Virus record (IMG/VR): IMGVR_UViG_2565956710_000004
Reading direction: 5' to 3' (one strand)
From: a virus
Lineage: Duplodnaviria > Heunggongvirae > Uroviricota > Caudoviricetes
DNA length: 41,214 bases
Made by a program: the position numbers and the translations under genes. The notes below the pieces were generated by a model. That model made no database searches. It was given only the letters and a program-made list of their open reading frames with translations, and had not been told where the DNA came from. This document shows, in pieces, positions 5,275 to 13,836 of this stretch (within the stretch, counting starts at the first letter, position 1; each line of letters begins with the position of its first letter).

Positions 5275-6225
5275 TTATAGCTCATTGTAAACAGCAATAG
5301 GCTCAATGAAATACTCATCAGAGTCAGGGGCGCAAAATGTTGACTCCAGATCAAAAAGGCTGTCATTCATATTCCAGACTGCACTGCGAATGCCGTTTAG
5401 TTCACGAGCCTCTGATTCCTGATTACCTTCAGACGTTGATGTACGCGTTATCATCCCTACGACTGTGAATGCAGAGGTCGTTCGACGAGAATATAACTTT
5501 ACAAACATTTCTGGACTGATTTTAAGAAAATCTCTGATTAAGAATGAGGTGAATTTAATATCTTGCATTTTTTGTGATATTTCTATTTCGTCACCATATG
5601 CGTAATCTAAAACAGAAGACAGATGCTCAAAGAATTTTTTCTGATTTGGAGATGTTAAATTATCAAGCTCACTTTTAATTTCTGCTTGTCTTGCCTTGAT
5701 AATATTAAATTCATTGGATTTGGGTTTTATCGATTTCAGCATCGATTCTAGACTTTCTAATTCGTCATTTCGATGAACGAAATTAATAGCATAGTTAGTT
5801 TTACAGAAATTCTTAGCGGTATTTTTTAATTTATTATAGTCATTAAATTGAATTGGGCAGGTGATTTTAACAAAGCAATTAGCCTTAATTTTGTTCGAGT
5901 CGATCGGGGAAGTTATGTTAGACAGAATTCCTCTTTTGCTAAGTTCGTTTTCAAATTTCAGATAATGATAATCATGAGGGTTTAACACTGTTGATATTTT
6001 TTTTGTGTCACTCGTTTTACTTGAACTACTTTTTGTCTTTATTTCGACTGCATCTATATTTGAAAGAGTAGACTCTTTATGCTCCATCGCGGATTGAATT
6101 ACGCCCTCAAATAATTGAGAGCTTAAAGAGTAGACCTTCTCATAATCAATATAAATGATATTTTTTAACTGCATACCAATTCCATTAGTGATATTTAAGT
6201 TGTTCTTTCTTTCTTTCAAAGTCAT
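5275..6225 (-). CDS. Hypothetical 316-aa protein, cargo gene in rexAB position
   Basis: Long ORF in very AT-rich DNA with Lys/Asn/Ile-rich codon usage unlike the flanking phage backbone; same strand as cI; followed directly by the terminator. No catalytic motif recognised. Confidence 0.6.
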   Translation of the reverse strand: MTLKERKNNLNITNGIGMQLKNIIYIDYEKVYSLSSQLFEGVIQSAMEHKESTLSNIDAVEIKTKSSSSKTSDTKKISTVLNPHDYHYLKFENELSKRGILSNITSPIDSNKIKANCFVKITCPIQFNDYNKLKNTAKNFCKTNYAINFVHRNDELESLESMLKSIKPKSNEFNIIKARQAEIKSELDNLTSPNQKKFFEHLSSVLDYAYGDEIEISQKMQDIKFTSFLIRDFLKISPEMFVKLYSRRTTSAFTVVGMITRTSTSEGNQESEARELNGIRSAVWNMNDSLFDLESTFCAPDSDEYFIEPIAVYNEL

Positions 6226-6364
6226 CGCTATTTGACTTTCTGACCCTTTCTATGTGCATTAAAGTTTCCTGTGCATTTTTGAGGTTTTTTCTTGAAAACC
6301 ATGCCAATACAGCAGGTATCACAACAGCTATTATGGATAAAATAGTAATTAAGTACTCCATAAT

Positions 6365-6781
6365 TTACTCCTGCGCCACTACTTTGTTATTGATAATAGC
6401 ACACCTGACTGAATTTTGTCCAATGTATAAGGATATACCACAAGTAATAGCGACTAATATGCGAGTCGTATTCATGTTAAGGATGTTATCAGCCAGCATA
6501 ACAATAATGTAAATTATAGAAAAAAGTACAATGAAAACAATCGATATGGTAGTGTTTATAATAATATTGTTTTCAGTTTGCTTGCTGGGTTGGCCCATTC
6601 CGTAATAAATACTGGATATTTGTACGGCAAAGCCAAAACATATCAACTCAGTTATATTGATCAGCTCTATGTTTTTATTAGTGATGAAATAAGCAATAAA
6701 TCTAATAAAGATAGGGATTGCTCCAATGATTACTGTTCCGCACCACCACTTGAAATAATCACTATGAATATTATGTTGCAT
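6365..6781 (-). CDS. Hypothetical 4-TM integral membrane protein, cargo gene immediately downstream of cI
   Basis: 138 aa, ATG at 6779-6781, 48 bp after the cI stop. Four hydrophobic segments (about residues 12-33, 43-62, 74-97, 107-122). Size and topology are reminiscent of RexB (144 aa, 4 TM), but there is no sequence similarity I can assert. Confidence 0.6.
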   Translation of the reverse strand: MQHNIHSDYFKWWCGTVIIGAIPIFIRFIAYFITNKNIELINITELICFGFAVQISSIYYGMGQPSKQTENNIIINTTISIVFIVLFSIIYIIVMLADNILNMNTTRILVAITCGISLYIGQNSVRCAIINNKVVAQE

Positions 6782-6829: not shown

Positions 6830-7519
6830 TTACCCATGCTTCCTGTACGTCTGCGGCATGCTCCCGATGACTTTCCCGAAAATGAATACCCGGTTCATCT
6901 CGTCTTTCTCGATCGGGTCCCACGGTGAGTAACTCTTGTTATCAGAGATAACGAGCAGCTTATCCTTCATCATTTGCAGGCGCTTTACATGGGCTGTGTC
7001 GTCGTACAGAAACGCATAGATACCATCACCGTCGAAAGATTTAACCGTGATATCAACGAACAGAAGATCACCTGGTTCGATCGTTCCTGACATGCTGTCA
7101 CCGCGTACGTTAATGATGCGGATATTTTCTGCCTTCCTGCCATCGAACATGTGACGAGCATCGTCAAACGAGTACTCAACCGAGCGTAGAACTTCTACAA
7201 ACTCACGGTTGATGACTCCCGGCCCGGCACTCACTTCTATATCAAGAACGTCAATCTTAAAGTATTTGGAATGGCTGACAGTGGATTGTATTGGTTGCAC
7301 TGTACTGTCTGACATATTTCCAACGCCAGAAGATAACCATTCTGCGCGCACACCCAAAGCGTTCGCGATCTCCACGATTTTAGTTGTTTGGTTAGCTTTC
7401 CCTGTTTCGATTTTCTGAATAGCAGCTTGGCTAACCCCGACCAAATCCCCAAGCGCCTTTTGTGTAAGGCCTCGCGCTAATCTGGCTTCTTTAAGTCTTT
7501 CTGAGAGTGTTGTTTTCAT
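6830..7519 (-). CDS. cI: CI-type prophage repressor (N-terminal HTH, C-terminal S24 LexA-like autopeptidase)
   Basis: Start MKTTLSERLKEARLARGLTQKALGDLVGVSQAAIQKIE (HTH_XRE pattern). C-terminal ...VRGDSMSGTIEPGDLLFVD... and ...HVKRL... give the Ser/Lys dyad of S24 peptidases. ATG at 7517-7519 has no SD, consistent with a leaderless pRM transcript as in lambda. The track extension to 7585 runs through the operators and is rejected. Confidence 0.85.
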   Translation of the reverse strand: MKTTLSERLKEARLARGLTQKALGDLVGVSQAAIQKIETGKANQTTKIVEIANALGVRAEWLSSGVGNMSDSTVQPIQSTVSHSKYFKIDVLDIEVSAGPGVINREFVEVLRSVEYSFDDARHMFDGRKAENIRIINVRGDSMSGTIEPGDLLFVDITVKSFDGDGIYAFLYDDTAHVKRLQMMKDKLLVISDNKSYSPWDPIEKDEMNRVFIFGKVIGSMPQTYRKHG

Positions 7520-7623
7520 AGTCCAAATGTACAACCAAGGTTTTATTTCATCAAACGAAAATGGTTGTTGACTAAAAACAACCATAGTTTTAACCTTGAT
7601 TCAAATTAACCACGGAGGTTGTT
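7520..7623. promoter_or_regulatory. OR operator / divergent pRM-pR promoter region
   Basis: Intergenic region between divergent cI and cro. Inverted repeat TGGTTGTT-GACTAAA-AACAACCA (7562-7584), near-palindromes AACCAAGGTT and AACCTTGATT, TTGACT (7568-7573) as candidate -35, GGAGG SD before cro. Confidence 0.6.
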
Positions 7624-7923: not shown

Positions 7924-8463
7924 ATGCAACCACTTACATACCAACAGACTAGCGGATTTACCCCGACTGCGGTGATAAATCGTTCTCAAACAAAACAGGC
8001 GCTAGGCCACGAAAAAATCCGTGATGCCGTTCGCGCCTGGTCGGCTGCAGATAATCAGGATGTTGTTGCCGCACTCATTGTGAATGAGTATCGGGTGCAG
8101 GGCGGCGGCACCATCGATTTCCCTGATGATGTCAGCCGTGCACGCCAGAAGCTGTTCCGCTTCCTCGATAACAAATTCGATTCTGAAAAATACCGAAATA
8201 ACGTGCGTGAACTGACCCCGGCAATTCTGGCGGTACTACCGCTGGAATATCGCGGCCACCTGGTTGAGCAGGATAGCTTCATGGCTCGGCTGGCTGAAAT
8301 GGAAAAGGAACTCAGTGAGGCAAAACAGGCTGTCATTCTCAACGCACCACGCCACCAGAAACTGAAGGAGATGAGTGAAGGCATTGTGTCGATGTTTCGT
8401 GTGGACCCGGATCTGGCTGGTCCACTGATGGCGATGGTCACCACCATGCTGGGGGCAATATGA
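7924..8463 (+). CDS. YdaT-family protein (CII-position regulator)
   Basis: 179 aa immediately after cro with AGGAG SD. Segments EYRVQGGG and TPAILAVLPLEYRGHL resemble recalled E. coli Rac YdaT (EYLRQGGG, IPAILAILPRELRHRL). Occupies the cII slot. Confidence 0.6.
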   Translation: MQPLTYQQTSGFTPTAVINRSQTKQALGHEKIRDAVRAWSAADNQDVVAALIVNEYRVQGGGTIDFPDDVSRARQKLFRFLDNKFDSEKYRNNVRELTPAILAVLPLEYRGHLVEQDSFMARLAEMEKELSEAKQAVILNAPRHQKLKEMSEGIVSMFRVDPDLAGPLMAMVTTMLGAI

Positions 8464-8549
8464 CAGGTTCAGAAATGGCGAAAGCCGGTCTGCGCGAACA
8501 GAACCGACTTTCAGGTGCAAATCGTAACACACTCATTGCGGGAGGAATT

Positions 8550-9479
8550 ATGGCAAACACTGCTGAGATATTCAATTTTCCAGTGCTGGATGTGGCACAA
8601 AAGGAGCCGCGCGTGGCAGATCTCGATGATGGTTATACGCGCATTGCAAATGAGTTGCTGGAAGCTGTAATGCTGGCCGGATTAACACAGCACCAGCTTC
8701 TGGTCTTCCTGGCTGTCATGCGCAAAACATATGGCTTTAATAAAAAACTGGATTGGGTGAGCAACGAGCAACTTTCCGAGTTGACCGGGATATTGCCGCA
8801 CAAGTGTTCTGCTGCAAAAAGCGTTCTGGTAAAGCGTGGGATTCTTATTCAGAGCGGGCGAAATATCGGCATCAATAATGTGGTCAGTGAATGGTCAACA
8901 TTACCCGAATCAGGTAAGAAAAATAAAGTTTACCTGAAGGAGGTAAATTTACCTGAATCAGGTAAGAAAAGTTTACCTAAATCAGGTAAAGGCGTTTACC
9001 CGAATCAGGTAAACACAAAAGACAAACTAACAAAAGACAATATAAAACCTTTTTCGTCCGAGAATTCTGGCGAATCCTCTGACCAGCCAGAAAACGATCT
9101 TCCTGTGGTGAAACCGGATGCTGCAATTCAGAGCGGCAGCAAGTGGGGGACAGCAGAAGACCTGACCGCCGCAGAGTGGATGTTTGACATGGTGAAGACC
9201 ATCGCGCCATCAGCCAGAAAACCGAATTTTGCAGGGTGGGCTAACGATATCCGCCTGATGCGTGAACGTGACGGACGTAACCACCGCGACATGTGTGTAC
9301 TGTTCCGCTGGGCATGCCAGGACAACTTCTGGTCCGGTAACGTGCTGAGTCCGGCCAAACTCCGCGACAAGTGGACCCAGCTCGAAATCAACCGAAACAA
9401 GCAACAGGCTGGCGTGACAGCCGGCAAACCAAAACTCGACCTGACGAACACTGACTGGATTTACGGGGTGGAGCTATGA
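8550..9479 (+). CDS. O: Replication initiator O (iteron-binding N-domain, lambda-like C-terminal P-interaction domain)
   Basis: Start MANTAEIFNF (lambda O: MTNTAKILNF) at ATG 8550 after GGAGG. C-terminal ~110 aa (...PSARKPNFAGWANDIRLMRERDGRNHRDMCVLFRWACQDNFWSGNV...DWIYGVEL) matches lambda O as recalled; N-terminal domain is diverged. Stop overlaps the P start (ATGA). Confidence 0.85.
   Translation: MANTAEIFNFPVLDVAQKEPRVADLDDGYTRIANELLEAVMLAGLTQHQLLVFLAVMRKTYGFNKKLDWVSNEQLSELTGILPHKCSAAKSVLVKRGILIQSGRNIGINNVVSEWSTLPESGKKNKVYLKEVNLPESGKKSLPKSGKGVYPNQVNTKDKLTKDNIKPFSSENSGESSDQPENDLPVVKPDAAIQSGSKWGTAEDLTAAEWMFDMVKTIAPSARKPNFAGWANDIRLMRERDGRNHRDMCVLFRWACQDNFWSGNVLSPAKLRDKWTQLEINRNKQQAGVTAGKPKLDLTNTDWIYGVEL
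8901..9014. repeat. Origin of replication iterons (4 direct repeats) embedded in O, followed by an A/T-rich tract
   Basis: Four about 18-bp repeats TTACC(C/T)(G/A)AATCAGGTAA(G/A) at 8901, 8949, 8973 and 8996, each internally palindromic (TTACC...GGTAA); AT-rich stretch 9015-9058 follows. Same architecture as lambda ori. Confidence 0.7.
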
Positions 9480-10186
9480 AAAACATCGCCGCACAGATGG
9501 TTAACTTTGACCGTGAGCAGATGCGCCGGATCGCCAATAACATGCCGGAACAGTACGACGAAAAGCCGCAGGTACAGCAGGTAGCGCAGATTATCAATGG
9601 TGTGTTCAGCCAGTTACTGGCAACTTTCCCGGCGAGCCTGGCTAACCGGGACCAGAATGAACTGAACGAAATCCGCCGCCAGTGGGTTCTGGCTTTCCGG
9701 GAAAATGGGATCACCACGATGGAACAGGTTAACGCTGGAATGCGCGTAGCCCGTCGGCAGAATCGACCATTCCTGCCATCACCCGGGCAGTTTGTCGCCT
9801 GGTGCCGGGAAGAAACATCCGTTAACGCCGGGCTGCCAAACGTCAGCGAGCTGGTTGATATGGTTTACGAGTATTGCCGGAAGCGTGGCCTGTATCCGGA
9901 TGCAGAGTCTTATCCATGGAAATCAAACGCGCACTACTGGCTGGTTACCAACCTGTACCAGAACATGCGGGCCAATGCGTTGACTGACGCGGAATTACGG
10001 CGCATGGCTGCCGATGAACTGTCCTGTATGACCGCGCGAATTAACCGTGGTGAAGCGATCCCTGAACCGGTGAAACAACTTCCTGTCATGGGCGGCAGGC
10101 CGCTTAATCGTGTTCAGAGCTTGGAAAAAATTAAACAATTGCGTGCTAAACATGGATTATGTAGAGGGAAAAGGTTTAGTGGATGA
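9476..10186 (+). CDS. P: Replication protein P (DnaB helicase loader)
   Basis: 236 aa; MKNIAAQMVNFDREQMRRIANNMPEQYDEKPQVQQVAQIINGVFSQLLATFPASLANRDQNE... is near-identical to lambda P; only the last about 25 aa diverge. Confidence 0.95.
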   Translation: MKNIAAQMVNFDREQMRRIANNMPEQYDEKPQVQQVAQIINGVFSQLLATFPASLANRDQNELNEIRRQWVLAFRENGITTMEQVNAGMRVARRQNRPFLPSPGQFVAWCREETSVNAGLPNVSELVDMVYEYCRKRGLYPDAESYPWKSNAHYWLVTNLYQNMRANALTDAELRRMAADELSCMTARINRGEAIPEPVKQLPVMGGRPLNRVQSLEKIKQLRAKHGLCRGKRFSG

Positions 10187-10224
10187 AAGTAATGAGGTGA
10201 TTTCCTTCTCTCCCACACTTCAAA

Positions 10225-10262
10225 AGATAGAGTTTATTATTTGAATTTACTATAATTTACTG
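10225..10262 (+). promoter_or_regulatory. Candidate sigma70 promoter for the MPP-HAD cassette
   Basis: Perfect TATAAT at 10251-10256 in an A/T-rich stretch about 50 bp upstream of the cassette start; -35 is poor (TAGAGT at 17-bp spacing, or TTGAAT too close). Confidence 0.3.
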
Positions 10263-10309
10263 ATAAAACAAAAGAATTGTAGAGCAATTTTCATTTGAGG
10301 ATGAAGTAA

Positions 10310-11956
10310 ATGTGTGAAACCTATATTTTTAGGTTCCGTGACCTAGGAAAAAGTGAAGGATTTACCATCGAGCAACACAATAAAATTGCTCGCCAAGAAG
10401 GGAATGTTTGGTGGGGGTGGTGGGCTAAATCTGGTGAGCGTTTCCCATCACTGGAACTAAAAAATGCGGCAGAAAAAAATAAACAAATATATTTTTTTGA
10501 TTCAGGGCGGCTTAAATTTTATACCGCTGTATTAAAGGATACTTGCTCGTCAGCTTTAGGGGATATAAAAAAGCAATCTCCTAAGGATGGTCGCAGAACC
10601 CCAGCATATTATAATGAGAATGAGTTGCTGGGATGGTTAAATGTTTCTGAGATTACAGAAATTGATGCTTGTGATATCCTCAAAAAATTCACATATATTC
10701 CATTGGATGCATTGTTTGCAGGTAATAAAGATTTAGATGAGCAACTTTTCAACAAAATTGTCTTTTCTTCAGCTGAATTAAAAAAACAAGATAGAACTAT
10801 TTGGAAGATTAGACCTGCAAATGATAAAGATTTACAGCATGAGTCATTAGCATCTCATTATGTTCCTTATAATTTCAGTCGGAAGTATAGCCAAAAAAAA
10901 GGGGAGTTTATAATTTGGCTTTCGGATATTCATTTTGATGGCGGAAATGGGAAACATGCATTTCCGACACAAGATAATGATCAGCTAAAATGTTTATCCT
11001 CTCGAGTGGTGGAGTTGGCTGGAAAATATAATAATGGGAGTAAATGTGCTGGGTTGGCTATTTCAGGTGATTTGACGTGGCAGTCACAGAAAGAGGGATT
11101 CGAGCAAGCTTTGAATTTTATCAAAGATGTTAGTTCTTCTCTTAGCCTGACAACGGATGATATAATTATTTGTCCTGGGAATCACGATGTAGGTCTGGTT
11201 TCTAAAGATGAGTACTTTAAAATCGTGGGTAAGCCTGTAACGGATAAACCATGGAAAATTCTGGCGGAAAACTACCATAGAGAAAGTAAACTTAATTATA
11301 TAAAATTTTATCGAGATTTTTTTCAAAGGGAACCTGAAGAAAATTTATCACAAGGAAGGAAATTTTTACTAGGTGGCCATAAAGTTGTTGAAATAGCCGC
11401 ATTGAACTCATGCGTATTACAACAAGTAAAAGATTCATTTTTGGGCATGGGATTTGTCGGTGAGCAACAACTCAGTGATGTTGCAAAATCTATGGGATGG
11501 ATGAATGATAGCGGAGGAGATATACTCAAAAAGAAAGGTGTTATAAGAATTGCTATGCTTCACCATCACCTAACTTCTATTAATGAAGTTGAAGATGCCT
11601 ATCTTGATTCAAGATATAGTGTAACATTAGATGCAGAGCGATTATTACGTTGGGTAGTAAGGCATAAAGTTGATTATATTCTGCATGGTCATATGCACAG
11701 AAGTAGTTCTATTACAATAACAAAAAAACTATCTCCGTTAGAACCAGTGACGGATTCAAATCCTGAACATACATTCCAAATTGTTTCTTTGGGAAGTTCA
11801 GGAGTTGTTAGTTCGGAATTGCCAAGTCAGGATTGTGCTAACTATGCATGCGTACTGGATTTTTCTGGCGAAAAGCTAACTTTTAATTTTTTCAAGCTTG
11901 ATAAACAGAGCGGAGAAAAAGTGGCGGCTACTTATATTGTTGAAGGTTTATTATGA
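10310..11956 (+). CDS. Calcineurin-like metallophosphoesterase with unknown about 190-aa N-terminal domain (cargo gene)
   Basis: 548 aa, ATG preceded by GAGGA. Full set of metallophosphoesterase motifs in order: D-x-H (WLSDIHFDGGNG), GD (ISGDLTW), GNHD (CPGNHDVG), H (MLHHHL), GHxH (LHGHMH). Lacks the GDxHG / GDxVDRG / GNHE signature of PPP-type Ser/Thr phosphatases such as lambda NinI. AT-rich codon usage. Confidence 0.75.
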   Translation: MCETYIFRFRDLGKSEGFTIEQHNKIARQEGNVWWGWWAKSGERFPSLELKNAAEKNKQIYFFDSGRLKFYTAVLKDTCSSALGDIKKQSPKDGRRTPAYYNENELLGWLNVSEITEIDACDILKKFTYIPLDALFAGNKDLDEQLFNKIVFSSAELKKQDRTIWKIRPANDKDLQHESLASHYVPYNFSRKYSQKKGEFIIWLSDIHFDGGNGKHAFPTQDNDQLKCLSSRVVELAGKYNNGSKCAGLAISGDLTWQSQKEGFEQALNFIKDVSSSLSLTTDDIIICPGNHDVGLVSKDEYFKIVGKPVTDKPWKILAENYHRESKLNYIKFYRDFFQREPEENLSQGRKFLLGGHKVVEIAALNSCVLQQVKDSFLGMGFVGEQQLSDVAKSMGWMNDSGGDILKKKGVIRIAMLHHHLTSINEVEDAYLDSRYSVTLDAERLLRWVVRHKVDYILHGHMHRSSSITITKKLSPLEPVTDSNPEHTFQIVSLGSSGVVSSELPSQDCANYACVLDFSGEKLTFNFFKLDKQSGEKVAATYIVEGLL

Positions 11957-12789
11957 AATTACTTATTACTGATTTGGATAATACACTGTACGATTGGGTG
12001 AGTTTTTACTCCCAGTCATTTAGTGCCATGGCAGAGCAATTATCTAAGGATATTGATGTGCCTTTGGATACGCTCCTGTCAGAATATAAAACAATTCATC
12101 AGAAGTTTGGTAACTCAGAAAAACCATTTGCTACTTTAGAGCTACCATCTGTGATATCTTACTTTGGAACTAATGATAAAACGATTTTGCAGGAAAGACT
12201 TACTAATGTTTTTCAGGCGTTTAGCACAAAACGTAACCAGACATTAATGTTGTATCCTACTGTAAAAGAAACGCTGGAATTATTGAAGAAACGGGGGGTA
12301 AAAATCGTAGGGCATACTGAAGCTTTGGAGTTTAATTCTTTATATCGTCTGAATAAGCTTGGTATAATTGATTTTTTTGATCATCTTTATACATTAGAAG
12401 ATATTCATAATATCCACCCGAATCCCAAAAATGCAAAAAAAATACCTGTGAAGGATGACTTTGTAATTAGATTGTCCTGCGCTGAGTCAAAGCCAAACCC
12501 TAAATTGCTTGAGCACATATGTTCTTTTGAAGGAGTTAGTGTTGAAGATGCAGTATACATTGGCGATTCTATAACTAAAGATATGTCCATGGCTAAAGCT
12601 GTGGGGGTTACTGCTGTTTGGGCTAATTATGGGCGACAGTTTTCACCTGAATTGTGGAAAGTTTTAGTGAAAATCACACACTGGAAAGATGCAGATGTGG
12701 AGAGGGAGGAACAACTTAGAAAAGCATTCTCCAATGTTAGACCTGATTATGTTGTTAATAGTTTTTCAGAGCTGCTGAATTTGAAATGA
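11953..12789 (+). CDS. HAD-superfamily hydrolase (phosphatase-type motifs) (cargo gene)
   Basis: 278 aa; start overlaps the upstream stop (ATGA). HAD motif I DLDNTL (residues 7-12, DxDxT), motif III Lys in ESKPNP, motif IV GDSITKD (GDxxxD). Confidence 0.75.
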   Translation: MKLLITDLDNTLYDWVSFYSQSFSAMAEQLSKDIDVPLDTLLSEYKTIHQKFGNSEKPFATLELPSVISYFGTNDKTILQERLTNVFQAFSTKRNQTLMLYPTVKETLELLKKRGVKIVGHTEALEFNSLYRLNKLGIIDFFDHLYTLEDIHNIHPNPKNAKKIPVKDDFVIRLSCAESKPNPKLLEHICSFEGVSVEDAVYIGDSITKDMSMAKAVGVTAVWANYGRQFSPELWKVLVKITHWKDADVEREEQLRKAFSNVRPDYVVNSFSELLNLK

Positions 12790-12799
12790 GCATGTGCAG

Positions 12800-12831
12800 G
12801 CTCCAAATTTTTAATGATTTGGAGCTCTTTA
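12800..12831 (+). terminator. Rho-independent terminator after the MPP-HAD cassette
   Basis: 9-bp perfect stem GCTCCAAAT (12800-12808) / ATTTGGAGC (12817-12825), 8-nt loop, then TCTTTA; begins 10 nt after the HAD stop. Confidence 0.6.
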
Positions 12832-13380
12832 TGGGGTTATTTTTTAATTTGGTGATTTTTCCCAATGTTGAGATGTTGTTGAACTCGTGAGTTATATTTA
12901 ACGTATTTGATGTTAATGAAATAATAATATCACAATGCAAGCTCCCTGCATTTTCTTGTAGGGGGCATGCTATTTAGAATAAGCTTATGGTCAAGATTAA
13001 ATTATGAACTGCTATTTTGATGGGCTGTTTATTATATTGGGGTTGTTTTCTTTTTGAGTTTTTATGGTTGAGATGAACGTTTGTTAAATGTTTTAATACC
13101 CTTTGTTACAACATTCATCATTTTTACTGTTTACTATCATGATGTTAGACTGAAATTATTAATTTGTGAAACTAATCATCTAATTTAACAATACAAAATT
13201 GAGATCCAATAATCAAAATGCCATAATCACGTCATCGGAGCCTGAACAACTCCGGTGACTTCTGCGCTAAACGGGGACGTTTATGCGCACATACAATCTA
13301 AACTCTCTTCTCTCTTCACAGATGCAGAAATGCACCTGCGATTCTTTGCATCCAACGTTTGACCTCTGCGGAGGTGAAGC

Positions 13381-13836
13381 GTGAACCTCCCACAAGACGG
13401 CATCAAATTACATCGCGGCAACTTCACCGCTATCGGCCAGCAGATCCAGCCTTATCTGGAGGACGGAAAATGCTTTCGCATGGTGCTTAAACCGTGGCGT
13501 GAGAAACGCAGTCTTTCCCAGAATGCACTCAGCCACATGTGGTACAGCGAAATCAGTGAATACCTCATCAGCAGGGGGAAATCGTTCGCTACCGCAGCAT
13601 GGGTAAAAGATGCTCTCAAACACACATACCTCGGTTATGAAACCAAGGACCTGGTTGATGTCGTAACCGGCGAAATCACTACTATCCAGTCGTTACGCCA
13701 TACCTCCGATCTTGATACCGGAGAGATGTATGTCTTCCTGTGTAAGGTTGAAGCCTGGGCGATGAATATTGGCTGCCACCTGACTATTCCGCAGAGCTGC
13801 GAGTTCCAGCTGCTGCGCGACAAGCAGGAGGCGTAA
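13381..13836 (+). CDS. ninB: NinB-family recombination protein
   Basis: 151 aa, GTG start after GGAGGTG; motif [17 protein letters not shown] parallels lambda NinB RSLDQNRKLWACLGDVS; first gene of the nin region. Confidence 0.8.

What the first reader, a model, noticed from the sequence alone, without database searches (positions are those of the whole stretch)
10187..12831. Self-contained metallophosphoesterase + HAD hydrolase cassette replacing ren between P and ninB
Where lambda has ren (itself an anti-exclusion accessory gene), this prophage carries about 2.6 kb of visibly AT-rich DNA. It holds a candidate promoter (TATAAT at 10251), two translationally coupled genes (ATGA overlap at 11953) and a strong terminator (12800-12831), which is the architecture of an independently expressed moron. 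Gene 1 (548 aa) has an unrecognised about 190-aa N-terminal domain fused to a complete calcineurin-like metallophosphoesterase motif set (DxH, GD, GNHD, H, GHxH); it is not the PPP-type signature of lambda NinI. Gene 2 (278 aa) has HAD phosphatase motifs (DxDxT, K, GDxxxD). I do not know a described phage defence or anti-defence system with this two-enzyme composition. Plausible roles: (a) nucleotide or second-messenger depleting defence expressed from the prophage; (b) counter-defence that hydrolyses cyclic-nucleotide immune signals, with the HAD enzyme dephosphorylating the products; (c) RNA/DNA end-healing phosphoesterases countering host anticodon nucleases.
Basis: partly seen in the sequence, partly recalled or inferred. 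Interest (0 to 1): 0.85.

Follow-up and report, generated by a model that had tools for sequence, protein, structure and literature searches.

The report
Prophage-borne type I Metis defence operon
The two-enzyme cassette is real, but it is the already described Metis (DS-9) anti-phage system: one enzyme destroys the cell's NAD+ when a methylated nucleotide shows that a lytic phage is shredding the host chromosome, and the other mops up that nucleotide in healthy cells.

Summary
Two overlapping intact genes (10310-11956 and 11953-12789) lie in AT-rich DNA between replication gene P and ylcH/ybcN (ninB-like), where related prophages carry ren.

It is not an undescribed system. Gene 1 passes the NCBIfam equivalog 'DS9_1_antiphage' (532 bits, cutoff 420). 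Its N-terminal domain is Pfam 'Pua-like'. A 99.6%-identical RefSeq locus is annotated misA/misB.

The first 399 nt of gene 1 match, at 396 positions, the E. coli 402837 MisA. Osterman et al. (bioRxiv 2025.11.05.686725) purified that protein and showed it to be an NAD+ diphosphatase activated by m6dAMP. All ten residues mutated in that work and in DefensePredictor (DS-9, Science 2026) are conserved here.

The published mechanism is as follows:
- A lytic phage degrades Dam-methylated host DNA, releasing m6dAMP.
- m6dAMP binds the PUA-like domain of MisA.
- MisA cleaves NAD+ to NMN and AMP, aborting the infection.
- The HAD enzyme MisB dephosphorylates basal m6dAMP and so prevents self-toxicity.

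The pair recurs in a Hachiman-containing defence island, a P4 satellite hotspot, Klebsiella plasmids and distant phyla.

Only the lambdoid-prophage placement and the junction details may be undescribed. Verdict: already known, low interest.

The parts
9476..10186 (+). Replication protein P (context). Its last ~23 codons differ from the common allele, and its stop codon lies in cassette-derived DNA.
   Evidence: 93-94% aa identity to P of other prophages, except the C-terminal tail: QSLEKIKQLRAKHGLCRGKRFSG against QALAKIAEIKAKFGLKGASV. DNA homology to about 3180 other E. coli P genes stops at about 10112-10124.
10180..10309 (+). 5' leader that travels with the cassette. It holds the candidate -10 (TATAAT, 10251-10256) and a GAGGA ribosome-binding site before the ATG.
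   Evidence: 81% identical over 130 nt to the leader of the DS-9 locus of strain H15, where the hexamer reads TATGAT. The promoter scan does not list it. DS-9 was active from a clone with its native upstream region.
10310..11956 (+). misA: the sensor-effector of type I Metis, an m6dAMP-activated NAD+ diphosphatase.
   Evidence: NCBIfam NF053862.1 DS9_1_antiphage equivalog, E 1.6e-159, 531.9 bits against a cutoff of 420. 396/399 nt and 131/133 aa identical to the purified 402837 MisA. 99.1% aa identity to the RefSeq misA product.
10322..10843 (+). PUA-like domain of MisA (aa 5-178), the predicted m6dAMP-binding sensor.
   Evidence: Pfam PF24405, E 2e-43, full-length profile match. Pocket residues R8 and W38 correspond to R9 and W39 of 401675 MisA, whose mutation abolished defence.
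10910..11701 (+). Calcineurin-like metallophosphatase domain of MisA (aa 201-464), the NAD+ cleaving effector.
   Evidence: Pfam PF00149, E 2.4e-12. D206, D254, N291, H292 and H463 align with the residues whose mutation abolished defence in DS-9A and in 401675 MisA.
11953..12789 (+). misB: a HAD phosphatase that dephosphorylates basal m6dAMP to m6dA and so prevents MisA autotoxicity. Its start overlaps the misA stop (ATGA).
   Evidence: Pfam HAD_2/Hydrolase. PADLOC PDLC03008 'Hydrolase', E 4.5e-57, full length. 99.6% aa identity to the RefSeq misB product. D7 and D9 correspond to D8 and D10 of the tested MisB.
12799..12826 (+). Hairpin 10 nt after the misB stop; a possible weak intrinsic terminator.
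   Evidence: 11-bp stem, dG -17.2 kcal/mol, z -3.1. The U-tract is short and interrupted, and the terminator scan does not list it.
12937..12970 (+). Second, stronger hairpin; terminator-like.
   Evidence: dG -22.6 kcal/mol, z -3.9, with 0 of 200 shuffles folding as well. The terminator scan lists its core, 12941-12966.
12790..13200 (.). AT-rich non-coding tail private to this prophage lineage; function unknown.
   Evidence: Present only in the 12 E. coli genomes that carry this cassette allele. Widely shared DLP12-type sequence resumes at about 13200-13210. Stops occur in all six frames and there is no match to other Metis loci. No Rfam family matches.
13283..13836 (+). ylcH-like small ORF (13283..13384) and ybcN/NinB-like gene (13381..13836): the downstream boundary (context).
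   Evidence: RefSeq annotation of the 99.2%-identical locus. Pfam NinB, E 6.5e-5.

Best explanation
The cassette is a type I Metis anti-phage defence operon (misA-misB, also called DS-9), carried as cargo by a lambdoid prophage at the position of ren.

Steps shown experimentally by others on near-identical or homologous systems:
1. Lytic phages such as T2, T4, T5, T6 and T7 degrade the host chromosome to mononucleotides.
2. Host DNA is Dam-methylated, so this releases N6-methyl-dAMP (m6dAMP). That nucleotide can only arise from degraded DNA.
3. m6dAMP activates MisA, and it is modelled in the N-terminal PUA-like domain.
4. The C-terminal metallophosphatase domain of MisA cleaves NAD+ into NMN and AMP. 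NAD+ is exhausted and the infection aborts.
5. MisB, the HAD phosphatase, converts the low basal m6dAMP from DNA repair into inactive m6dA, keeping MisA silent in healthy cells. MisA alone defends, but it slows growth.

Steps inferred for this locus:
- The operon is expressed in the lysogen from a promoter in its own 130-nt leader. The ATGA overlap couples MisB synthesis to MisA.
- Lambdoid phages do not degrade host DNA. The prophage can therefore carry the system without harming its own lytic growth, while it excludes lytic competitors.
For: Family assignment:
- MisA scores above the curated cutoff of the NCBIfam equivalog 'DS9_1_antiphage / anti-phage phosphoesterase'.
- Its architecture is Pua-like plus Metallophos.
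- MisB matches the PADLOC 'Hydrolase' model over its full length. DefensePredictor's own table assigns the homologous DS-9B to the Rst_Hydrolase-Tm hydrolase HMM.

Identity to tested and annotated systems:
- RefSeq annotates a locus 99.6% identical in its coding DNA as misA/misB. It lies in the same P-to-ybcN position of a prophage integrated at icd.
- The first 399 nt of the gene differ at 3 positions (2 aa) from the synthesized E. coli 402837 MisA. That system defended against T2, T4, T5, T6 and T7, and its MisA was the protein purified for the in-vitro NAD+ cleavage assays.
- The proteins are 80% and 78% identical to DS-9A and DS-9B (WP_000665639.1, WP_000770925.1).
- All mutated residues are conserved: MisA R8, W38, D206, D254, N291, H292 and H463; MisB D7 and D9.

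Independent co-occurrence test:
- In 13 loci from other species, all 7 assessable MisA relatives with 29% identity or more have a MisB homologue immediately downstream on the same strand. They span Enterobacterales, Gemmatimonadota, Actinomycetota, Bacillota and Gastranaerophilales.

The pair sits in typical defence contexts:
- next to Hachiman and a restriction enzyme;
- in the psu-int hotspot of a P4-like satellite;
- on conjugative Klebsiella plasmids.
Against: - No experiment was done on this exact allele.
- Identity to the tested 402837 system could be checked only over the 399 nt that the supplementary table prints.
- The mechanism rests on one preprint plus the DS-9 validation. No solved structure exists.
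- Expression in the lysogen is not shown. The -10 hexamer has no good -35, and the scan gives no excess over shuffles.
- Dependence on host Dam is assumed for the unknown host strain.
Confidence: 0.93

Rival explanations
1. The genes are type I Metis, but in this prophage they are transcribed mainly as part of the pR early-right operon during lytic growth. They are not expressed constitutively in the lysogen. They would then act only during induction or infection, for example to exclude co-infecting lytic phages.
For: The cassette lies inside the early-right operon on the same strand, directly after P. The candidate promoter is weak by consensus and was not picked up by the scan.
Against: The 130-nt leader with the -10 hexamer travels with the cassette into a non-phage defence island. 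The DS-9 homologue defended from its native upstream region on a low-copy plasmid. Defence cargo in prophages is normally lysogen-expressed (established knowledge).
Confidence: 0.08
2. A counter-defence pair. The metallophosphoesterase hydrolyses cyclic-nucleotide immune signals (CBASS, Pycsar or Thoeris type), and the HAD enzyme dephosphorylates the products.
For: The related DS-8 metallophosphatase domain resembles human SMPDL3A, a cGAMP phosphodiesterase. The cassette sits in a phage genome.
Against: Homologous operons reduce plating of phages when expressed alone in MG1655, so they defend rather than counter defence. Purified, near-identical MisA cleaves NAD+ on m6dAMP activation. MisB dephosphorylates m6dAMP. 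The pair also occurs in chromosomal defence islands and on plasmids.
Confidence: 0.02
3. RNA/DNA end-healing phosphoesterases that repair anticodon-nuclease damage (the reader's option (c)), or a housekeeping NinI- or Mre11/SbcD-type phosphatase or nuclease.
For: Both enzyme superfamilies include end-processing enzymes. Lambda carries a phosphatase (NinI) in the nin region (established knowledge).
Against: There is no kinase or ligase partner. The PPP signatures GDxHG, GDxVDRG and GNHE are absent: the sequence reads SDIHFDG, SGDLTWQ and GNHD. The SbcD-related model scores 13 bits against a cutoff of 115. The equivalog hit is to the anti-phage family.
Confidence: 0.01

Closest known systems
Type I Metis (MisA-MisB) of E. 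coli 402837, 401675 and E308 (Osterman et al., bioRxiv 10.1101/2025.11.05.686725)
   Same: It has the same two-gene operon and order, and the same PUA-like plus metallophosphatase architecture for MisA with a HAD MisB. The printed 399 nt of the 402837 allele are 99.2% identical. The DNA is about 79% identical to the E308 allele (H125), and the proteins are 36% and 51% identical to the 401675 allele. All functionally tested residues are conserved.
   Different: Only the genomic setting may differ. Here the operon is cargo of a lambdoid prophage between P and ylcH/ybcN. The genomic setting of the 402837 source strain is not given in the text I read. This exact allele has not been assayed.
DS-9 (DefensePredictor, PMC13092281; WP_000665639.1 and WP_000770925.1)
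   Same: It belongs to the same family (NCBIfam DS9_1_antiphage equivalog). The proteins are 80% and 78% identical. The 130-nt 5' leader is shared at 81%. The catalytic residues D207 and N292, whose mutation abolished defence, correspond to D206 and N291 here.
   Different: In strain H15 the DS-9 allele lies in a chromosomal island beside Hachiman and a restriction endonuclease, not in a prophage. The downstream tail is unrelated.
Type II Metis / Rst_Hydrolase-Tm (HAD hydrolase plus a 3-TM protein; Rousset et al. 2022, PMC9122126)
   Same: It has a homologous MisB-type HAD phosphatase (PADLOC 'Hydrolase', 4.5e-57; DefenseFinder HMM assignment of DS-9B). The same m6dAMP and Dam logic is reported.
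   Different: The effector there is the membrane protein MisC. No such gene is present here, and the DNA after misB is non-coding.
DS-8 (a NACHT-metallophosphatase single-protein defence)
   Same: It has a homologous calcineurin-like domain (NCBIfam DS8_antiphage, E 9e-15 over residues 204-472).
   Different: The score of 53 bits is far below the 790-bit cutoff. DS-8 has a NACHT sensor instead of a PUA-like domain and no HAD partner.
NAD+-depleting abortive-infection effectors (SIR2, TIR and SEFIR domains of Thoeris, CBASS, Pycsar, pAgo)
   Same: The outcome is the same: NAD+ exhaustion stops phage replication.
   Different: Those enzymes cleave the nicotinamide-ribose bond to give nicotinamide and ADPR. 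MisA is a diphosphatase that gives NMN and AMP, and it is triggered by a DNA-breakdown product rather than by a phage protein or a synthesised second messenger.

Membership tests
Type I Metis / DS-9 (MisA-MisB) | MisA has an N-terminal PUA-like domain fused to a C-terminal calcineurin-like metallophosphatase. | tested here: met
   Pfam PF24405 Pua-like, aa 5-178, E 2e-43; PF00149 Metallophos, aa 201-464, E 2.4e-12.
Type I Metis / DS-9 (MisA-MisB) | MisA scores above the curated cutoff of the family's equivalog model. | tested here: met
   NF053862.1 DS9_1_antiphage: 531.9 bits against a cutoff of 420, covering profile positions 1-484 of 486.
Type I Metis / DS-9 (MisA-MisB) | A MisB-type HAD phosphatase is encoded immediately downstream in the same operon. 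| tested here: met
   ATGA overlap at 11953. HAD_2/Hydrolase. 78% and 51% identical to the MisB of the DS-9 allele and of the allele identical to 401675 over its printed 399 nt. The same arrangement occurs in 7 of 7 assessable relatives from other phyla.
Type I Metis / DS-9 (MisA-MisB) | The residues shown by mutagenesis to be required are conserved: the m6dAMP pocket, the metal/catalytic site and the MisB aspartates. | tested here: met
   MisA R8, W38, D206, D254, N291, H292 and H463, and MisB D7 and D9, all align with the mutated positions.
Type I Metis / DS-9 (MisA-MisB) | Near-identity to an experimentally validated system. | tested here: met
   396/399 nt identical to the synthesized 402837 misA. 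The remainder of that sequence is not printed in the held supplement, so full-length identity is untested.
Type I Metis / DS-9 (MisA-MisB) | Function: Dam-dependent, m6dAMP-triggered NAD+ cleavage to NMN and AMP, and protection against phages that degrade host DNA. | not testable with these tools
   This needs plaque assays, metabolite measurements and enzyme assays. It is shown for homologues only.
Type II Metis / Hydrolase-TM | A three-helix membrane effector, MisC, is encoded next to MisB. | tested here: not met
   The partner is MisA. The 500 nt after misB has stops in all frames, and the longest open stretch is 61 codons on the minus strand.
Lambda NinI / PPP-family Ser/Thr phosphatase | The PPP signatures GDxHG, GDxVDRG and GNHE. 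| tested here: not met
   The sequence reads SDIHFDG, SGDLTWQ and GNHD. The signature definition is from established knowledge of the PPP family.
Mre11/SbcD nucleases | A score above the family cutoffs. | tested here: not met
   The only related hit, TIGR00024 SbcD_rel_arch, scores 13.4 bits against a cutoff of 115.
DS-8 (NACHT-metallophosphatase) | A full-length match including the NACHT domain. | tested here: not met
   53.5 bits against a cutoff of 790. Only the phosphatase domain aligns, at profile positions 2-237 of 994.

The most novel reading that the evidence does not exclude
The evidence does not exclude that this prophage lineage carries a distinct, undescribed mobile form of Metis. 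Such a unit would bring its own 130-nt promoter leader, which also rewrites the C-terminus and stop codon of replication protein P. It would also bring a private 410-nt AT-rich non-coding tail with two hairpins. That tail could be a functional part of the unit, for example a terminator pair that insulates the nin genes and substitutes for lambda tR2, or a small regulatory RNA. The alternative is that the tail is inert donor DNA.
Probability: 0.15. Interest if true: 0.25.

Novelty: already known. Interest (0 to 1): 0.15.

Why it matters
As a discovery it does not matter: the system, its mechanism and its family model are already in the literature and in RefSeq annotation.

It has two modest uses.
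- It shows that a reader working from raw sequence can pick out a real defence system and come close to its logic.
- It documents that Metis also travels as cargo of lambdoid prophages at the variable ren site. This fits the published idea that Metis spares temperate phages, which do not degrade host DNA, and kills lytic ones.

The prophage setting gives a natural system for asking how a lysogen expresses a potentially self-toxic NAD+ destroyer.

Tried and rejected
- Phage collection: no DNA match and only one 30%-identical tblastn hit in an unannotated faecal phage contig. Isolated sequenced phages therefore gave no further context.
- Solved structures: only a marginal metallophosphatase hit for MisA (2xmo, E 2.5e-4) and generic HAD folds for MisB.
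- Rfam on 10100-13450: nothing credible. The one hit was a miRNA model at 20 bits against a cutoff of 80.
- The tail 12790-13210 against all fetched Metis loci and the rest of the window: no match beyond the identical prophage.
- I looked for the reference list of the Metis preprint to name its reference 28, but it is not held. The link to Rousset's HAD+TM system was made instead through.
- A literature search for a described defence hotspot in the lambdoid nin region returned no paper containing the phrase 'nin region'.
- I did not run the large protein-database searches or structure prediction. The family assignment was already decisive, and they would have cost much shared computing for no change in the verdict.
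- The counter-defence, end-healing, NinI and Mre11 readings were considered and rejected on the evidence listed under the rival explanations and the membership tests.
Full report
**What is in the sequence**

- Two ORFs on the + strand, 10310..11956 (548 aa) and 11953..12789 (278 aa), overlap by ATGA.
- They lie in DNA of 31-40% G+C, flanked by 50-57% G+C. The AT-rich block runs to about 13300, so it is about 3.1 kb rather than 2.6 kb.
- Upstream are an O-like replication gene (8460..9479) and replication protein P (9476..10186).
- Downstream are a 33-codon ylcH-like ORF (13283..13384), ybcN/NinB-like (13381..13836), ninE, ybcO, rusA and a Q antiterminator.
- The window starts with a lambda-type integrase and carries an S24 repressor, YdaT, Bor and the late genes, so it is a lambdoid prophage.

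Four related prophages with the same P gene all have ren directly after P. After ren comes either ninB (UTI89) or a variable stretch (emrE-ylcJ-ybcK, then ybcL-ybcM or other genes) before ylcH/ybcN. This prophage has no ren. 'Replacing ren at a variable cargo site' is therefore correct.

TATAAT is at 10251-10256. There is no acceptable -35 at 16-18 nt. The scan did not list the site and found no excess of promoter-like sites over shuffles.

The hairpin after misB (12799-12826) has dG -17.2 and z -3.1, with a short interrupted U-run. The terminator scan did not list it. A stronger hairpin lies at 12937-12970 (dG -22.6, z -3.9), and the scan does list that one.

**Identification**

Gene 1:
- It carries Pfam 'Pua-like' (PF24405, residues 5-178, E 2e-43) and Metallophos (201-464).
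- It passes the curated cutoff of the NCBIfam equivalog NF053862.1, 'DS9_1_antiphage, anti-phage phosphoesterase' (531.9 bits against 420).

Gene 2:
- It is a HAD-IA type hydrolase.
- It matches the PADLOC defence model PDLC03008 'Hydrolase' over its full length (E 4.5e-57).

Twelve of 5,426 complete E. coli genomes carry the same 3.2-kb segment at 99.2% identity, or 99.6% over the coding part. One of them (NZ_OZ547246.1) is annotated 'misA: anti-phage phosphoesterase / misB: HAD family hydrolase'. The genes sit in the same P-to-ybcN position of a prophage integrated next to icd.

**What the literature says**

DefensePredictor (PMC13092281, Science 2026) validated DS-9, a metallophosphatase plus HAD operon (WP_000665639.1 and WP_000770925.1). 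It was cloned with its native promoter region. The mutations D207A and N292A in DS-9A abolished defence.

Osterman et al. (bioRxiv 10.1101/2025.11.05.686725) named the system Metis and worked out its mechanism:
- Systems from E. coli 401675, 402837 and E308 protect against T2, T4, T5, T6 and T7 by abortive infection.
- Escape mutants of T4 and T6 have lost denA, the nuclease that begins host DNA degradation.
- Defence requires host Dam.
- Purified MisA (the 402837 allele) cleaves NAD+ to NMN and AMP only when given m6dAMP. It does not respond to dAMP, m6AMP, m6dA or m6-adenine, and it does not cleave ATP.
- Added m6dAMP is toxic to cells that carry Metis.
- MisA alone defends but slows growth and lowers NAD+.
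- MisB dephosphorylates m6dAMP to m6dA and removes the basal pool.

**Does this locus belong to that family?**

The supplementary table prints the first 399 nt of each synthesized system.
- The window's misA matches the 402837 allele at 396 of 399 nt, or 131 of 133 aa. That is the allele used for the enzyme assays.
- Over the same stretch it is 75% identical in protein to E308 and 42% to 401675.

I recovered the full-length DS-9 allele (strain H15, L002) and an allele identical to 401675 over its printed 399 nt (strain PK6, L003) from complete genomes.
- MisA is 80% and 36% identical to these; MisB is 78% and 51% identical.
- Every residue mutated in either study is conserved. These are the pocket residues R8 and W38; the catalytic residues D206, D254, N291, H292 and H463; and MisB D7 and D9.
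- Both ORFs are intact.

Function itself cannot be tested with these tools.

**Independent check of pairing and context**

A scan of one genome per species found 13 loci with MisA relatives.
- All seven assessable ones with 29% identity or more have a MisB homologue directly downstream on the same strand. They come from Buttiauxella, an enterobacterial-like contig binned as Collinsella, Longimicrobium, Rubrobacteraceae, Lachnospiraceae, Ruminococcaceae and Gastranaerophilales.
- Five more distant ones (22-26% in four; two partial segments of 31-37% in the fifth) lack a MisB homologue.

Within E. coli the pair sits in three unrelated mobile or defence settings:
- this lambdoid prophage;
- a chromosomal island beside Hachiman and a restriction enzyme;
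- the psu-int hotspot of a P4-like satellite at ssrA.

Further observations:
- About 80%-identical copies are on conjugative Klebsiella, Enterobacter and E. coli plasmids.
- About 36 of 5,426 E. coli genomes have the 402837- or DS-9/E308-type alleles. Six more match the 401675-type probe, three of them over its full 399 nt.
- Sequenced isolated phages do not carry it.

**Details of the insertion**

DNA homology between this P gene and about 3,180 other E. coli P genes stops at about 10112-10124. The last ~23 residues of P differ from the common allele.

From 10180 to the misA start, the DNA is 81% identical over 130 nt to the leader of the DS-9 locus in its non-phage setting. This stretch includes the -10 hexamer, which reads TATGAT there. 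The leader therefore travels with the operon and supplies P's stop codon. DS-9 was active from its native upstream region. The promoter therefore plausibly lies in this leader, but that is an inference.

Homology to DS-9 ends at about 12770. The 410 nt from 12790 to about 13200 occur only in the 12 genomes with this allele. They are closed in all frames, match nothing else I fetched and hit no Rfam family. Their role, if any, is unknown.

**Mechanism for this locus**

Shown for near-identical or homologous proteins:
- m6dAMP triggers NAD+ diphosphatase activity in MisA.
- MisB clears m6dAMP.
- Defence depends on Dam and on phage nucleases.

Inferred here:
- The operon is expressed in the lysogen from its own leader.
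- The ATGA overlap couples synthesis of the 'safety' enzyme MisB to that of the effector.
- The host phage is compatible with its cargo, because lambdoid phages do not degrade the chromosome. The preprint states that Metis does not act on temperate phages.

**Rivals**

- Counter-defence against cyclic-nucleotide signalling and end-healing are contradicted by the published assays and by the defence-island contexts.
- PPP/NinI membership fails on the signature motifs.
- Mre11/SbcD membership fails on score.
- The only live alternative concerns timing of expression: lysogen-constitutive, or pR-driven.

**Verdict**

The system is already known and already annotated in RefSeq, so interest is low. 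Only the prophage placement and the junction details may be undescribed.

Noticed in passing
window 10112-10186: The 3' end of replication gene P is mosaic. The last ~23 residues differ from the allele found in thousands of E. coli prophages (3 residues longer, ending CRGKRFSG). The stop codon lies in DNA homologous to the Metis/DS-9 leader. Whether P function is affected is unknown.
   Followed up: partly
window 12790-13200: A 410-nt AT-rich non-coding tail with two hairpins (12799-12826, 12937-12970) and promoter-like sites at 13185-13227. It is found only in the 12 genomes with this cassette allele. It is unrelated to the DNA downstream of other Metis loci and matches no Rfam family.
   Followed up: partly
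window 5275-6781 (- strand): A second variable cargo site lies between the S24 repressor (6830..7585) and the kil/gam side. Here it holds a DUF6414 protein (316 aa) plus a 138-aa ORF with no family hit. Related prophages carry DUF1828+hypothetical, ASCH+hypothetical or Ser/Thr kinase+RuvC-like genes at this position (the rexAB-equivalent spot). There is no significant PADLOC or NCBIfam hit, so this is a candidate uncharacterised exclusion module.
   Followed up: partly
L014 2804-5431 (Geodermatophilus amargosae): A distant MisA homologue (26% identity) is directly preceded by an abutting ORF with an N6-adenine methyltransferase-like domain and has no MisB homologue. This matches the 'type III Metis' proposed in the preprint's discussion.
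   Followed up: partly
L012 5540-6346; L015 5196-5759: Other distant MisA homologues have different neighbours. One in an Acidimicrobiales MAG has a CAP12/Pycsar-type TIR protein downstream. One in a Bathyarchaeota MAG has a HAD of another subfamily downstream.
   Followed up: no
L003 8161-12677 (E. coli PK6): An allele identical to 401675 over its printed 399 nt occupies the psu-int hotspot of a P4-like satellite integrated at ssrA. Rousset et al. found the HAD+TM (type II) system in the same hotspot.
   Followed up: partly
L018 5776-6303 (UTI89 prophage): A related prophage without Metis encodes its own N6-adenine methyltransferase in the nin region. No such gene was seen between ninB and Q in the window, so this Metis copy would rely on host Dam.
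   Followed up: no
L004 (contig labelled uncultured Collinsella MAG): A 6.4-kb contig binned as Collinsella carries the enterobacterial DS-9-type allele, with the same identity to the window proteins (79.9% MisA, 78.0% MisB) as the DS-9 allele of strain H15. This is probably a mis-binned Enterobacteriaceae contig.
   Followed up: no
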